Virus genome (UHGV): UHGV-0391791
DNA: 38,277 nucleotides
Source: a virus
Strand: one strand, 5' to 3'
Shown: in pieces, positions 15,201 through 30,742 of the stretch
Layout of the letters: each line of letters opens with the position of its first letter
Position numbering within the stretch: position 1 is the stretch's first letter
Made by a program: the position numbers and the translations under genes
Notes under the pieces: generated by a model
The model's input: the letters and a program-made list of their open reading frames with translations, nothing else
Told to the model about the DNA's origin: nothing
Database searches by the model: none

Positions 15201-15277
15201 GTGGCATTAGCTCAGTTGGACAGAGCAACCGCCTTCTAAGCGGTTGGTCGCAGGTTCGAATCCTGCATGCCACGCCA
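15201..15277 (+). tRNA. tRNA-Arg, anticodon UCU (reads AGA), phage-encoded, argU-like
   Basis: Manual cloverleaf: 7-bp acceptor stem GTGGCAT/ATGCCAC, D-arm GCTC/GAGC, anticodon stem ACCGC/GCGGT with loop CTTCTAA, T-arm GCAGG-TTCGAAT-CCTGC, discriminator G plus encoded CCA; 77 nt. Confidence 0.85.
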
Positions 15278-26578: not shown

Positions 26579-26827
26579 ATGAAAGGTGCATTAGGTAAGA
26601 AGGAACTCCTGGCGGTGGTGCCACTGTCATGGAGCACTATCGACCGCATGGAGCGCGCAGGGGAATTTCCTAAACGCTGGTATATCACTGACAAACGCTG
26701 CGCATGGAACCGTGATGAAGTTGAGCGTTGGCTTGATGAACGTCAGGCAGCAAGCCCGGCAGAGTTCCAGGGTAAAAAGCCTCCTGTTCAGCAACGTGTA
26801 TATCGTCCTGTGAGCAACGCTGCATGA
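26579..26827 (+). CDS. AlpA-family HTH regulator / excisionase-like protein (82 aa)
   Basis: Track ORF; small winged-HTH-like segment (ELLAVVPLSWSTIDRMERAGEFPKRWYITDKRCAWNRDEVERWL); near the integrase. Confidence 0.55.
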   Translation: MKGALGKKELLAVVPLSWSTIDRMERAGEFPKRWYITDKRCAWNRDEVERWLDERQAASPAEFQGKKPPVQQRVYRPVSNAA

Positions 26828-27879: not shown

Positions 27880-28070
27880 ACAGGGCATCACCAGCAGATT
27901 TAAGGAAATGCCTTGAAACTGCAAACATGCTTGCACACAGCGGGATCAGGTTTGTTCCAGTTCCAGCTGTCACTGATGCTGAATTTGCAACACTGTCAGC
28001 AATATTCGCAGATAAAATTGAATCACTGGCAGCAGAAGCCGAGATGGAAGAAAATCAGCAGAATAATTAA
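27876..28070 (+). CDS. Hypothetical small protein (64 aa, MNRASPADLRK...)
   Basis: In-frame part of track ORF 27756..28070; ATG overlaps the methyltransferase stop. Confidence 0.4.
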   Translation: MNRASPADLRKCLETANMLAHSGIRFVPVPAVTDAEFATLSAIFADKIESLAAEAEMEENQQNN

Positions 28071-28073
28071 ACG

Positions 28074-29324
28074 TTATTCCCCCGCCATCCACTTCTCAAA
28101 CTTCGACGGGGAGAACGGAATCAGATCCGTATGCTCCCCGTTAATCCAGGAATCAATCATATCGGCCCACTGCTGCAACATGTAGGCGCGCTGTCTGGCG
28201 TATTCCGCTTTGTTATATACGGCGCGCACACCTTTCTGCTCATGTGCCAGAGCCTTTTCAATCCAGTCTGAAGGATAACCAGCCTCATGCAACAACGTAC
28301 TGGCTGTACGGCGCATATCGTGTACGGTGAAGCCCTGAATATGCTCACCATCTTCATTTATTATTTTCACCGTTCTGTCGATCAGAGAGTTCAGCGCGGC
28401 ATTAGATAATGGCTTCCGGAAATTGTAACGACCAGGAACCAGATATTCACTTCCACCAGCGCACATCTGCAACCCAACCAATATATCCTGTGCCTGTTTA
28501 GGCAGGTAAATAACGTGCGCCCGGCTTCCCTTCATGCGGTCTGAAGGAATTGTCCATGTCCATTTTTTAAAATCTATTTCATCCCACGTTGCATTGGTGA
28601 ATTCGCCTTTACGAACCATAGTGATAAGCACCAGCTTTAAAGCCATTTTCATAGTGCCCATAGCACCAATGGCATCCAGCGTGCGGAAGAACAGGCCAAT
28701 TTCTTCTGGTGTCAGTGTTCGCTCTCGTGGTTTAAATATGGCGATAGACGAAGGTTTAATGTCAGCCGCAGGATTAAACAAACCATGACCACGGTCATTG
28801 GCGTGACGGTATACGCTGCTGATGATCTCCCTGGCCTGTACTGCTGTTGCACGGCCACCGCGTTCGACAATCCGGTCACACAAATCACGAACCATCGATG
28901 TGGTAATTTCAGCCATCATTTTGTTGCCAAGAACCGGAAGTATGTCACGGTCGATCACCGCCTGCTTCATTGCGCGGGTACTGTCAGCCAGGATGACGTG
29001 TTTCATATAACTGTCGGTATGTACCGCAAACGTCTCGGCACCACGAATCTTTTTGATACCGTCACGTTTAGCCGCAGCCGGCGACTGGCCTGCTTTAAGC
29101 AGCTTCTTTGCAGCAATCAGTTCTTCTCGCGCTTCTGCCAGGCTGATACCGTCACGCCCATACTGCCCGATTACCAGTGTTTCGCGGCGACCGTTGATAC
29201 GGTAGTCATAGCGAAACGAGACCGTGCCTGACGTAAGCACAGCTACATACAGCCCGTCACGATCGGAGACCTTGTACAGTTTGTCCTGCGGCTTGAGGTT
29301 TTTTAATTTTGTATCGGTAAGCAC
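28074..29324 (-). CDS. int: Tyrosine integrase, P4-type (416 aa)
   Basis: Track ORF; N-terminus MLTDTKLKNLKP...LYVAVLTSGTVSFRYDYR typical of P4-like integrases; C-terminal catalytic region HDMRRT...VRAVYNKAEY. Confidence 0.9.
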   Translation of the reverse strand: MLTDTKLKNLKPQDKLYKVSDRDGLYVAVLTSGTVSFRYDYRINGRRETLVIGQYGRDGISLAEAREELIAAKKLLKAGQSPAAAKRDGIKKIRGAETFAVHTDSYMKHVILADSTRAMKQAVIDRDILPVLGNKMMAEITTSMVRDLCDRIVERGGRATAVQAREIISSVYRHANDRGHGLFNPAADIKPSSIAIFKPRERTLTPEEIGLFFRTLDAIGAMGTMKMALKLVLITMVRKGEFTNATWDEIDFKKWTWTIPSDRMKGSRAHVIYLPKQAQDILVGLQMCAGGSEYLVPGRYNFRKPLSNAALNSLIDRTVKIINEDGEHIQGFTVHDMRRTASTLLHEAGYPSDWIEKALAHEQKGVRAVYNKAEYARQRAYMLQQWADMIDSWINGEHTDLIPFSPSKFEKWMAGE

Positions 29325-29339
29325 AATTCACCCGTATAG

Positions 29340-29620
29340 AAACCATTTTCATGACGGTATGAGAGTATACCTTTAAGGTAATACCGTCACCTGTACCGCC
29401 GAAAAATATGGTGTAGAGTGAATAGAAATGAATACATAAAAACAAAAACCCTCTGCAAAAACAGAGGGTTGAGTTGGCATCTGAATAGGAATGATTTGCT
29501 ATGAGTTAGCTGTTAATCATTCCCACTCAATTATTTACGATACACATAAACAATTGACTGATAACAACTTTCTTCCAAATGATTTTCACCGTACCGTTTT
29601 ATATACCGTCACCGGAAATC
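29340..29620. other. Candidate attP: arm-type repeats TACCGTCACC (29382, 29604; inverted copy 29352; partial 29587) flanking a 9-bp inverted repeat GGAATGATT/AATCATTCC (29488..29523)
   Basis: Repeats read directly from the sequence; location adjacent to the integrase start. Confidence 0.35.
29438..29468 (-). terminator. Rho-independent terminator ending the leftward tailspike-lysis operon before the integrase
   Basis: Minus strand CCCTCTG-loop-CAGAGGG followed by TTTTTGTTTTT. Confidence 0.6.
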
Positions 29621-30116
29621 AGTGCCACGATTTTTGCTTCTTCAGTGAATCGTATTGCTGTTCGCAGGATTCTCCTGCAATCCGATACTTTTCAGCCTCA
29701 GCTGCTGTTGCGTTGTAAACTCGGTTGCTTTCTTCAAGCATGTCGGCGAGCACACCGATGACCTTGCTGGCTGGCGTGCCAGTGGGGAAAGATCCGGTAT
29801 AGTGTTCGGCGAGTCGCTTGGTTTTGTCAAGCTCGGCGCGCAGGCTGTCAGCAGCGGCATTAGCATGCTCAGCATCAACACGCGCCACATCGATACGGGA
29901 CTGTGCTTCACGTTCAATTTGTGTTTTCTCCTGATCACGTTGTGACCTGGCCTTATCATCAGCCTGTTTCTGATCTTCCTGTGCCTGCGCATACCCGGCG
30001 TCGTACTGACGACTGCCGTGTGCATTCCAGGCTACAACTCCTGATATGACCAGAACAGCAAGCATCGCCATGATAACCAACTGTTTCCAGTATGCTTTTG
30101 CGAATGCCCAGATCAT
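29619..30116 (-). CDS. i-spanin (Rz-like; 165 aa) with N-terminal TM helix and coiled coil
   Basis: Track ORF; N-terminal WKQLVIMAMLAVLVISGVVAW, charged helical body; follows the endolysin. Confidence 0.55.
   Translation of the reverse strand: MIWAFAKAYWKQLVIMAMLAVLVISGVVAWNAHGSRQYDAGYAQAQEDQKQADDKARSQRDQEKTQIEREAQSRIDVARVDAEHANAAADSLRAELDKTKRLAEHYTGSFPTGTPASKVIGVLADMLEESNRVYNATAAEAEKYRIAGESCEQQYDSLKKQKSWH
29642..29890 (-). CDS. o-spanin (Rz1-like lipoprotein) embedded in the +1 frame of the i-spanin gene
   Basis: Internal start of track ORF 29642..30025; lipobox LLTAC; Pro-rich mature region. Confidence 0.45.
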   Translation of the reverse strand: MWRVLMLSMLMPLLTACAPSLTKPSDSPNTIPDLSPLARQPARSSVCSPTCLKKATEFTTQQQLRLKSIGLQENPANSNTIH

Positions 30117-30742
30117 ACCGCCAGCACCTTACTGGCAGTGATGTACCGCGCGCGCCGGTCGTCGATGCCGTTCCGGCCACCATTGATAATCAGAGTTACA
30201 CGTGCAATATCGCCGGTATACTTCATGCATCCTTTGCTGGCAAAGAACCACGCCGCGCTACGAGCCGCGTATTCGTCCTGCGCCAGCAGTTCAGGACTCT
30301 CCAGCAGGTCAACCTTAAGACCGTTTCCACAGTCACGATAGTTATTCAAACCGGTAATCTGGATAAGTCCGCGACCACGGTAATTCCAGCCATCACCAGA
30401 GGCATTGTTACCCATGCGTTTGCTGTACACCAGATTTGCGATCGCGCGCTGGCGCTCAAGTGGCAATGGTGGCTCACCAGCACGGCGGCCCAGTGCGTTA
30501 GCCTGTCCCTGGGTGAGACGCCCAGCCCGAACGAAGTTAGCCAGTCCGGTGACGCTGTAGTTGAAATTTTCCTGCAACCGGTTGAAGCCACCAGACTCAT
30601 GCCCGACCTGAGCAATAAACATTGCCTGATCTTCGGGTTTGCTGATACCAAACTCTTTCATCGCAGAAGTTATATGCGAGAACCAGCGAGCGGCCAGCGC
30701 CTCGCTAATACCAGCAGCTCGCTGGAATTGTTTAATCTCCAT
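30113..30742 (-). CDS. Endolysin, glycoside hydrolase family 19-type (about 209 aa from MEIKQFQ)
   Basis: Track ORF 30113..30973; motifs VGHESGGF and NYRGRGLIQITGLNNY; internal ATG at 30742 has SD GAGGT, and the N-terminal extension overlaps the upstream membrane-protein gene. Confidence 0.8.
   Translation of the reverse strand: MEIKQFQRAAGISEALAARWFSHITSAMKEFGISKPEDQAMFIAQVGHESGGFNRLQENFNYSVTGLANFVRAGRLTQGQANALGRRAGEPPLPLERQRAIANLVYSKRMGNNASGDGWNYRGRGLIQITGLNNYRDCGNGLKVDLLESPELLAQDEYAARSAAWFFASKGCMKYTGDIARVTLIINGGRNGIDDRRARYITASKVLAV

What the first reader, a model, noticed from the sequence alone, without database searches (positions are those of the whole stretch)
29340..29620. Candidate attP with arm-type repeats next to an internally located P4-type integrase
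Immediately upstream of the integrase start lie direct copies of TACCGTCACC (29382, 29604), an inverted copy (29352) and a partial copy (29587). They flank a 9-bp inverted repeat GGAATGATT / AATCATTCC separated by 18 bp (29488..29523), a plausible core region. A strong minus-strand terminator and a variant operator dyad sit in the same interval. P4-type integrases usually target tRNA genes, so the core should match the 3' end of a host tRNA or tmRNA gene.
Basis: partly seen in the sequence, partly recalled or inferred. Interest (0 to 1): 0.45.

Follow-up and report, generated by a model that had tools for sequence, protein, structure and literature searches.

The report
Known phage attP targeting guaA
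This is the attachment site (attP) of a phiV10/epsilon15-type temperate phage, which inserts at the 3' end of the host guaA gene rather than at a tRNA gene; the site was already determined experimentally for close relatives, so the finding is real but ordinary.

Summary
The repeats, the inverted repeat, the terminator and the operator-like dyad are all present at the stated coordinates, and all are conserved in nine related phages.

**What it is.** The interval is the attP of a Uetakevirus (phiV10/epsilon15 group).

**Where the core lies.** Prophage junctions in E. coli lysogens place it at 29515-29531 (AATCATTCCCACTCAAT). This is the reverse complement of the last four codons and stop codon of guaA plus 2 nt. 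It is the same 17-bp core published for epsilon15, phiV10 and vB_EcoP_ZX5.

- Right: this is attP, and it has arm-type repeats.
- Wrong: the target is not a tRNA or tmRNA gene.
- Partly wrong: the 9-bp inverted repeat is not the core. Only its right arm overlaps the core.

**Arm repeats.** The TACCGTCAC repeats lie at about -171, -141, -129, +69 and +81 from the core centre, a lambda-like layout. The epsilon15 GenBank record already annotates the equivalent sites as integrase-binding sites.

**Not found described in the papers and records examined.**
- A conserved minus-strand RNA hairpin pairs the guaA end with phage sequence.
- The phage terminator is a look-alike of the host guaA terminator.
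- A repressor-operator-like dyad sits between two arm sites upstream of int.

Novelty: already known. Interest: low.

The parts
28074..29324 (-). Integrase gene (416 aa, GTG start): tyrosine recombinase with separate arm-binding, core-binding and catalytic domains
   Evidence: ORF. Pfam Arm-DNA-bind_3, Phage_int_M and Phage_integrase. Matches to CP4-like integrase N-terminal domains and to lambda Int structures. About 97% nucleotide identity to phiV10 int.
29057..29065 (+). TACCGTCAC copy inside the int coding sequence (codons R87-I90): possible distal arm-type site
   Evidence: Exact match. Annotated as an integrase-binding site in epsilon15. Kept in 8 of 9 phages; the synonymous-site test is only suggestive.
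29147..29155 (+). TACCGTCAC copy inside the int coding sequence (codons R57-I60): possible distal arm-type site
   Evidence: Exact match. Annotated as an integrase-binding site in epsilon15. Invariant in 9 of 9 phages, including third codon positions.
29351..29359 (-). Inverted arm-type copy (TACCGTCAT on the minus strand), about -171 from the core centre
   Evidence: (I6). Largely conserved; 3 of 9 phages carry one or two substitutions.
29367..29381 (.). Operator-like dyad ATACCTTTAAGGTAA, a variant of the dispersed TTACC-N5-GGTAA family, lying between the two inverted arm-type copies
   Evidence: 14 hits against 0.52 expected. TACC-N5-GGTA is invariant in nine phages. The epsilon15 record annotates 8 repressor-binding sites elsewhere in the genome but none here; their sequences were not read, so their equivalence to this dyad family rests on recollection of the epsilon15 operator motif.
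29382..29391 (+). Arm-type site TACCGTCACC on the int-proximal arm, about -141
   Evidence: Invariant GGTAATACCGTCA in nine phages. epsilon15 annotation 'integrase'.
29394..29401 (+). Second, partial arm-type copy TACCGCCG, 12 bp after the first, about -129
   Evidence: Sequence. TACCG is invariant in nine phages. Offset.
29419..29431 (+). Core-like motif TGAATAGAAATGA, one of three copies of TGARTRGNNNTGA
   Evidence: (D6). GTGAATAG..TGA is conserved in nine phages.
29447..29470 (-). Intrinsic terminator. It ends the late lysis transcript in the phage and the guaA transcript in the lysogen, upstream of int. It is 24 of 27 identical to the host's own guaA terminator.
   Evidence: Annotated as a terminator in phiV10 and epsilon15.
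29482..29496 (+). Left arm of the inverted repeat: a degenerate inverted copy of the core that forms the 3' half of a minus-strand RNA hairpin
   Evidence: (I1).
29515..29531 (-). attP core AATCATTCCCACTCAAT, the 17 bp identical to attB. On the minus strand it reads ATT GAG TGG GAA TGA TT, which is the guaA codons I-E-W-E, the stop codon and 2 nt.
   Evidence: attP, attL, attR and attB aligned. Lysogen annotation. The published core 'attgagtgggaatgatt' for ZX5, phiV10 and epsilon15 (PMC9782041).
29521..29528 (.). Inferred strand-exchange (overlap) region TCCCACTC, flanked by the imperfect inverted half-sites AATCATT and AATTATT
   Evidence: Inference from the sequence. The guaA-targeting island GIsul2 recombines at GAGTGGGA, which is the reverse complement of this segment (PMC9376610). 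ATCATTCCCACTCAATTATTTAC is invariant in nine phages.
29525..29563 (.). Cluster of IHF-consensus matches: 29525-29537 (+), 29547-29559 (-), 29551-29563 (-)
   Evidence: 3 matches with one mismatch or fewer against 0.31 expected per 296 bp. IHF sites are annotated at the homologous positions in epsilon15.
29592..29601 (+). Arm-type copy TACCGTTTTA on the Rz-proximal arm, about +69
   Evidence: Sequence. ATACCGTTTTATATACCGTCAC is invariant in nine phages. Offset.
29604..29613 (+). Arm-type site TACCGTCACC on the Rz-proximal arm, about +81, 5 bp downstream of the Rz stop codon
   Evidence: epsilon15 annotation 'integrase'.
29619..30116 (-). Rz-like spanin gene (DUF2514), the last gene of the lysis cassette, bounding attP
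26579..26827 (+). AlpA-family protein (82 aa), the candidate excisionase (recombination directionality factor)
   Evidence: Pfam PF05930. Its epsilon15 homologue gp33 is annotated 'excisionase and transcriptional regulator'.

Best explanation
The 294-bp gap between int and the Rz spanin gene is the attP of a phiV10/epsilon15-type (Uetakevirus) temperate phage.

Shown:
- Strand exchange with the host takes place inside a 17-bp segment, 29515-29531, that is identical to the last four codons, the stop codon and 2 nt of guaA.
- Integration leaves the guaA reading frame intact.
- After integration, int with its arm lies directly downstream of guaA. The lysis genes with the other arm lie about 39 kb away, next to yfgI.

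Inferred:
- The integrase binds two kinds of site with two different domains. Its N-terminal arm-binding domain binds the TACCG(TCAC) repeats at about -171, -141 and -129 on the int side and +69 and +81 on the Rz side. Two further copies may lie inside its own coding sequence.
- Its core-binding and catalytic domains bind the imperfect inverted half-sites around TCCCACTC.
- IHF bends the Rz-side arm.
- The AlpA-family protein directs excision.
- The terminator at 29447-29470 stops late-operon transcription in the phage, and guaA transcription in the lysogen, from reading into int.
For: Junctions and host site:
- Window 29325-29531 is found at 100% identity next to guaA in hundreds of E. coli chromosomes, and the match stops exactly at 29531.
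- In strain E2865 the order is int, this arm, then the guaA stop codon at the position equal to window 29517.
- The other junction in E2865 lies 38.7 kb away between yfgI and Rz. It carries the same 17 bp followed by a close variant of the window's sequence from 29532 onward.
- The four att sites line up on the 17-bp core.
- 4570 of 5426 E. coli genomes have the uninterrupted attB.

Literature:
- The same 17-bp core was shown experimentally for ZX5 and is reported for phiV10 and epsilon15 (PMC9782041).

Integrase and accessory sites:
- The integrase has an arm-binding domain, a central domain and a catalytic domain.
- The arm repeats are over-represented, invariant across nine phages and annotated as integrase-binding sites in epsilon15.
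- IHF-like matches are enriched.
- An AlpA-family ORF is present.
Against: - No binding or mutational data exist here for the arm repeats. Their assignment to Int rather than to Xis or another factor rests on position, conservation and analogy.
- The two copies inside int encode the peptide R-D-G-I. Their synonymous-site conservation is only suggestive: 28% of comparable codons are also invariant.
- The copy at 28803 is not conserved.
- The exact cleavage positions within the 17 bp are inferred, not mapped.
- The simple scan found no sigma-70-type int promoter on the minus strand.
Confidence: 0.93

Rival explanations
1. The core is the 9-bp inverted repeat region 29488-29523, with crossover in its 18-bp spacer, and it matches the 3' end of a host tRNA or tmRNA gene, as in classical P4-type targeting.
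For: - The inverted repeat exists.
- The integrase belongs to the broad P4/SXT-like group with a PF13356 arm-binding domain.
- Many members of that group target tRNA genes (PMC8138268).
Against: - In lysogens, 29482-29514 stays phage-side next to int and is absent from attB. attP-attB identity is confined to 29515-29531.
- The host feature under the junction is guaA.
- No tRNA-like sequence lies in the interval.
- An 18-bp spacer is too long for paired tyrosine-recombinase half-sites, which are 6-8 bp apart (established knowledge).
Confidence: 0.02
2. The inverted repeat overlapping the core acts mainly as an RNA element. On minus-strand transcripts (guaA mRNA in the lysogen, late lysis mRNA in the phage) it forms a 21-pair stem-loop that buries the guaA stop codon, just upstream of the terminator. 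It would serve as a processing site (RNase III) or a stabilising or insulating 3' structure. This adds to the attP function rather than replacing it.
For: - Hairpin energy is -21.2 kcal/mol, z = -5.3.
- 19-20 of 21 pairs are kept in eight phages on the minus strand against 16-17 on the plus strand, because the mismatches are G.U only on the minus strand.
- The one-sided changes are G.U to G-C.
- The native host guaA 3' end has no such hairpin.
- An RNase III site was predicted in an overlapping stretch of the epsilon15 record.
Against: - One arm is fixed by guaA, so no compensatory double changes are possible and covariation is nil.
- A third copy of the same 13-nt motif lies beyond the terminator at 29419-29431. 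That points to a DNA-binding motif rather than RNA.
- phiV10 and two other phages each break a pair.
Confidence: 0.3
3. The three TGARTRGNNNTGA copies (29419, 29482, and inverted inside the core at 29517) are DNA-binding sites for a recombination protein. Candidates are extra core-type sites for Int or sites for the AlpA-type excisionase. They would help assemble or orient the intasome.
For: - The motif occurs only three times in 38 kb, all within 111 bp of attP (the pattern was derived after seeing the copies).
- All three copies are conserved in nine phages.
- One copy coincides with the core.
Against: - The statistic is post hoc.
- No protein-binding data exist.
- The spacings of 63 and 35 bp do not match any known excisionase array.
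Confidence: 0.3
4. The dyad at 29367-29381 is a working operator. The prophage repressor binds there and shuts off the int promoter, and possibly blocks Int access to the flanking arm sites, in the lysogen.
For: - It is a one-mismatch member of a strongly over-represented dyad family.
- TACC-N5-GGTA is invariant in nine phages although the central bases vary.
- It lies about 45-55 bp upstream of the int start, next to a TATACT hexamer on the minus strand (read).
Against: - The epsilon15 record does not list it among its repressor sites.
- One half-site deviates from the family consensus.
- No promoter passed the scan on that strand.
- Conservation could be due to the overlapping arm-site context.
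Confidence: 0.35

Closest known systems
attP of Salmonella phage epsilon15, E. coli phage phiV10 and vB_EcoP_ZX5 (genus Uetakevirus)
   Same: - The 17-bp core (attgagtgggaatgatt) is identical.
- The position is the same, about 190 bp upstream of int.
- The target is the same, the guaA 3' end.
- The terminator is the same, and the 10-bp integrase-site repeats are the same ones annotated in the epsilon15 record.
- int is about 97% identical at nucleotide level to phiV10.
   Different: - There are only sequence-level differences in the arms; this attP region is 91.6% identical to phiV10 and 83.5% to epsilon15.
- The window has a different Rz allele starting right after the last arm site.
- The hairpin stem has two extra G-C pairs in the E. 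coli phages.
Bacteriophage lambda attP (Int, IHF, Xis intasome)
   Same: - The integrase has separate arm-binding and core-binding/catalytic domains.
- Arm-type repeats unrelated to the core sequence lie on both sides at similar distances: about -140/-130 and +70/+80 here, comparable to lambda's P1/P2 and P'1-3 sites (from memory).
- IHF-like sites lie between core and arm.
- A small excisionase gene is present.
   Different: - int is transcribed away from attP, so attP lies upstream of int rather than downstream. A sib-type retroregulation of int is therefore not possible.
- The excisionase candidate is AlpA-type and is not adjacent to int.
- The target is the end of a protein-coding gene.
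- Membership as a lambda-type site is by analogy; no binding was tested.
guaA-targeting genomic islands (GIsul2, CMGI-3), the epsilon15 cluster of IntSXT-type integrases
   Same: They insert at the 3' end of guaA. The GIsul2 recombination sequence GAGTGGGA lies inside this core at 29521-29528 (PMC9376610; PMC8138268).
   Different: They are islands, not phages. Their identity segment is shorter (8-19 bp). Their arms were not compared here.
Satellite phage P4 attP and related tRNA-targeting integrases
   Same: The integrase domain family is the same (phiV10 int is annotated INT_P4; PF13356). attP lies adjacent to and upstream of int, with flanking repeats.
   Different: The defining tRNA 3'-end target is absent.

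Membership tests
Uetakevirus (epsilon15/phiV10) attP at guaA | 17-bp core attgagtgggaatgatt present once, upstream of int | tested here: met
   There is a single exact copy at 29515-29531 on the minus strand, 191 bp from the int start at 29324. The published sequence is quoted.
Uetakevirus (epsilon15/phiV10) attP at guaA | Prophage junctions (attL, attR) fall at this core, at the 3' end of guaA | tested here: met
   563 of 5426 E. coli genomes hold a match to this attP interval; every listed partial hit is 29325-29531 under guaA.
Uetakevirus (epsilon15/phiV10) attP at guaA | An unoccupied attB exists with the same 17 bp | tested here: met
   The reconstructed attB is found uninterrupted in 4570 of 5426 genomes, between guaA and yfgI.
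Uetakevirus (epsilon15/phiV10) attP at guaA | Flanking genes and integrase are orthologous to phiV10 and epsilon15 | tested here: met
Lambda-type attP (core, arm-type sites and accessory factors, with an integrase that binds both site types) | Integrase with a separate N-terminal arm-binding domain | tested here: met
   PF13356, E = 4e-20, residues 2-87. PDB matches to CP4-like integrase N-terminal domains.
Lambda-type attP (core, arm-type sites and accessory factors, with an integrase that binds both site types) | Repeated motifs, distinct from the core sequence, on both arms | tested here: met
Lambda-type attP (core, arm-type sites and accessory factors, with an integrase that binds both site types) | Int protein actually binds the arm motifs | not testable with these tools
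   This needs gel-shift or footprinting experiments. Only the annotation in the epsilon15 record is available.
Lambda-type attP (core, arm-type sites and accessory factors, with an integrase that binds both site types) | IHF sites between core and arms | tested here: inconclusive
   Three consensus matches with one mismatch, against 0.31 expected. This is a pattern match only.
Lambda-type attP (core, arm-type sites and accessory factors, with an integrase that binds both site types) | Cognate excisionase | tested here: inconclusive
   An AlpA-family ORF lies at 26579-26827. Its function was not tested.
P4-type tRNA-targeting attP | Core identical to the 3' end of a tRNA or tmRNA gene | tested here: not met
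   The core equals the guaA 3' end. There is no tRNA in or near the interval.
Lambda sib-type RNase III retroregulation of int | Hairpin lies downstream of int on the int transcript and is separated from int by integration | tested here: not met
   The hairpin at 29482-29529 lies upstream of int and stays linked to int in the lysogen.

The most novel reading that the evidence does not exclude
Besides being a standard attP, the int-proximal arm may be a conserved regulatory cassette that rewrites the 3' end of the host guaA transcript and gates int. It has three parts. A phage-encoded antisense segment pairs with the guaA stop-codon region to give a 21-pair RNA hairpin. A near-copy of the host's own guaA terminator follows. 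A repressor-operator-like dyad is wedged between two inverted arm-type sites just upstream of int. I found none of these three features described in the papers and records I could read.
Probability: 0.3. Interest if true: 0.35.

Novelty: already known. Interest (0 to 1): 0.1.

Why it matters
It matters little beyond annotation. The result fixes the attP core of this phage at 29515-29531 and corrects the expected target from a tRNA gene to guaA.

There is a practical use: the 17-bp core, together with the conserved arms, is a reliable marker for delimiting phiV10-type prophages next to guaA. About 10% of complete E. coli genomes carry one.

The side observations (hairpin, terminator look-alike, operator dyad) could be of modest interest for understanding how a prophage avoids disturbing an essential-pathway gene it docks onto.

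Tried and rejected
- **tRNA or tmRNA target.** Rejected: ARAGORN finds only tRNA-Arg at 15201, and the junctions lie in guaA.
- **Inverted repeat as the core.** Rejected by the attP/attB/attL/attR alignment.
- **TACCGTCAC copy at 28803-28811 as an arm site.** Rejected: it is not conserved in epsilon15 or PAT1.
- **Synonymous-site test for the two int-internal copies.** Only suggestive. 27 of 98 comparable codons are also fully invariant, and one phage has lost the second copy.
- **Promoter scan.** It found no sigma-70-type int promoter on the minus strand between terminator and int. A TATACT hexamer with a poor -35 was seen by eye only.
- **The epsilon15 genome paper** (Kropinski 2007, PMC2698709) could not be read because it is not held. 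Its content is known here only through citations and through the GenBank features.
- **Literature search for arm-type sites in this phage group.** It returned nothing specific.
- **Sib-like retroregulation of int.** Rejected on geometry: the hairpin is upstream of int.

Full report
**Observation**

- TACCGTCACC is exact at 29382-29391 and 29604-29613.
- An inverted copy, TGACGGTA, lies at 29352-29359.
- Partial copies lie at 29394-29401 (TACCGCCG) and 29592-29601 (TACCGTTTTA).
- GGAATGATT (29488-29496) and AATCATTCC (29515-29523) are exact inverted repeats 18 bp apart. They extend to 15-nt arms at 87% complementarity.
- A minus-strand intrinsic terminator lies at 29447-29470.
- The 'variant operator dyad' is ATACCTTTAAGGTAA at 29367-29381. 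It belongs to a TTACC-N5-GGTAA family with 14 hits at one mismatch or fewer, against 0.52 expected.
- TACCGTCAC with one mismatch or fewer gives 17 hits against 5.3 expected. Four of the five exact copies, plus the one-mismatch inverted copy, fall within 29057-29612.

**Context**

The interval is the gap between the integrase gene (28074-29324, minus strand, 416 aa) and the Rz-like spanin gene (29619-30116, minus strand), which ends the lysis cassette. The integrase has an arm-DNA-binding domain (PF13356), a central domain and a tyrosine-recombinase catalytic domain. It matches CP4-like integrase N-terminal domains and lambda Int in the PDB.

The window is a phiV10/epsilon15-type podovirus (genus Uetakevirus). 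The stretch 28000-30200 is 96-98% identical to phiV10, ZX5, the O157 typing phages 9 and 10, and several others, and about 81-82% identical to epsilon15, Tyrion and PAT1.

**Where recombination happens**

A megablast of 29325-29620 against 5,426 complete E. coli genomes hits 563 genomes.
- In all but seven genomes no match covers 80% of the query; in every listed partial hit it runs from 29325 and stops exactly at 29531, with guaA annotated under its end.
- In strain E2865 the order is int, this arm, then the guaA stop codon at the position equal to window 29517.
- The other prophage end in E2865 lies 38.7 kb away between yfgI and the Rz gene. It carries host sequence, the same 17 bp, then a close variant of the window's sequence from 29532 onward.
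- Aligning attP, attL, attR and the reconstructed attB shows that identity is confined to AATCATTCCCACTCAAT, 29515-29531.
- On the minus strand this reads ATT GAG TGG GAA TGA TT, the last four codons and stop codon of guaA plus two bases. The guaA reading frame therefore survives integration.
- The reconstructed attB is uninterrupted in 4,570 of 5,426 genomes.

**Already known**

- The ZX5 paper determined attB, attL and attR by PCR and Sanger sequencing. It gives the core as attgagtgggaatgatt, 190 bp from the int start and at the 3' end of guaA, and states that the same sequence is the attP of phiV10 and epsilon15 (PMC9782041).
[quoted passage not shown] This cluster is separate from the tRNA-targeting P4 cluster (PMC8138268).
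- The genomic island GIsul2 recombines at GAGTGGGA in the same guaA end (PMC9376610). That sequence is the reverse complement of window 29521-29528.

**Arm repeats**

The epsilon15 RefSeq record annotates four 10-bp 'integrase' binding sites, three IHF sites, a terminator and RNase III sites in the homologous region. By alignment, the four integrase sites correspond to window 29057, 29147, 29382 and 29604.

In a nine-phage alignment spanning hosts in Escherichia, Salmonella, Enterobacter and Klebsiella (79-97% identity in this region), three blocks are invariant:
- GGTAATACCGTCA;
- the TACCG that follows it 12 bp later;
- ATACCGTTTTATATACCGTCAC.

The inverted copy at 29351-29359 is nearly invariant.

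Relative to the core centre, the copies lie at about -171 (inverted), -141, -129, +69 and +81. This layout is very like lambda's P and P' arms (established knowledge, from memory). Three IHF-consensus matches cluster at 29525-29563, against 0.31 expected.

The two copies inside int encode R-D-G-I.
- The first (codons 57-60) is invariant in all nine phages, including third positions.
- The second is lost in one phage.
- Because 28% of comparable codons are also invariant, this is suggestive only.
- A further exact copy at 28803 is not conserved.

**How it most likely works**

- Shown: the crossover lies within 29515-29531 at guaA.
- Inferred: Int's arm-binding domain occupies the TACCG(TCAC) repeats.
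- Inferred: its core-binding and catalytic domains occupy the imperfect inverted half-sites AATCATT (29515-29521) and AATTATT (29529-29535), around a 7-8-bp overlap (TCCCACTC).
- Inferred: IHF bends the Rz-side arm.
- Inferred: the AlpA-family protein at 26579-26827 directs excision.
- Supporting the second half-site: the block ATCATTCCCACTCAATTATTTAC is invariant in all nine phages and extends 8 bp beyond the host-identical segment on the phage side. That fits a conserved phage-specific half-site.

**What the inverted repeat really is**

Its right arm is the guaA-derived core. Its left arm (29482-29496) is a degenerate inverted copy of the core.
- On the minus-strand RNA (guaA mRNA in the lysogen, late lysis mRNA in the phage) it folds into a 21-pair stem-loop of -21.2 kcal/mol, z = -5.3.
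- In eight phages, 19-20 of 21 pairs hold on the minus strand against 16-17 on the plus strand. The mismatches are G.U on the minus strand only.
- The host's native guaA 3' end has no such hairpin.
- Against a purely RNA role, a third copy of the same 13-nt motif (TGARTRGNNNTGA) lies beyond the terminator at 29419-29431. The motif occurs nowhere else in the window (the pattern was derived post hoc).

Its role is unresolved. It is not the core.

**Other details**

- The phage terminator (AAAAACCCTCTG-6 nt-CAGAGGGTT) is 24 of 27 identical to the host's own guaA terminator, which integration displaces. The prophage therefore supplies guaA with a near-identical terminator ahead of int.
- The operator-like dyad sits between the inverted and direct arm copies, about 45-55 bp upstream of the int start. 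TACC-N5-GGTA is invariant in nine phages. The epsilon15 record does not list it among its repressor sites. It may make int expression or arm occupancy repressor-sensitive; this is untested.

**Verdict**

The site is an already characterised attP type, so interest is low.

Noticed in passing
window 29482-29529 (minus-strand RNA): A conserved 21-pair hairpin pairs the guaA stop-codon region (the attP core) with a phage-encoded inverted copy. Energy is -21.2 kcal/mol, z = -5.3. Pairing is better on the minus strand because of G.U pairs in all eight phages compared. The native host guaA 3' end lacks it.
   Followed up: partly
window 29419-29431, 29482-29494, 29517-29529: The motif TGARTRGNNNTGA occurs only three times in the 38-kb window, and all three copies are in attP. 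Two are direct copies flanking the terminator and one is inverted inside the core. The pattern was derived post hoc and its function is unknown.
   Followed up: partly
window 29444-29470 versus L003 10787-10813 (E. coli E2865, downstream of guaA/yfgI): The phage terminator is 24 of 27 identical to the host's own guaA terminator; the differences are in the loop only. After integration it replaces the host terminator downstream of guaA.
   Followed up: partly
window 14864, 18012, 18030, 21118, 21180, 23463, 23511, 24223, 24285, 29367, 33839, 34071, 34452, 35467: A dispersed family of TTACC-N5-GGTAA dyads gives 14 hits at one mismatch or fewer, against 0.52 expected. It probably corresponds to the repressor-binding sites annotated in epsilon15, though those annotated sites were not read or aligned here. 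One variant copy lies inside attP between two arm-type sites, and the epsilon15 record does not annotate it as a repressor site.
   Followed up: partly
L011 (E. coli Z1323CEC0007 chromosome, 3594682-3599977) and six other genomes (hits H26-H32): Seven E. coli chromosomes match at three places, one of them a full-length intact attP. In Z1323CEC0007, the one inspected, int-attP-Rz are contiguous there; if the other two places are attL and attR, these are tandem double lysogens at guaA.
   Followed up: partly
window 15201-15277: A tRNA-Arg (anticodon TCT) gene on the plus strand is shared with phiV10 relatives. It is annotated in phiv142-3 and the O157 typing phages but not in the phiV10 record.
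   Followed up: partly
window 29614-30000: There is a mosaic boundary. Identity to phiV10 breaks off a few bases after the last arm-type site, near the Rz stop codon. This window's Rz allele resembles that of Phi05_2388 B, Tyrion and PAT1 rather than phiV10.
   Followed up: no
E. coli genome collection: About 856 of 5,426 genomes lack an uninterrupted guaA-yfgI attB, but only 563 carry this phage's int-proximal arm. Roughly 290 genomes may therefore hold other elements at the same guaA site.
   Followed up: no
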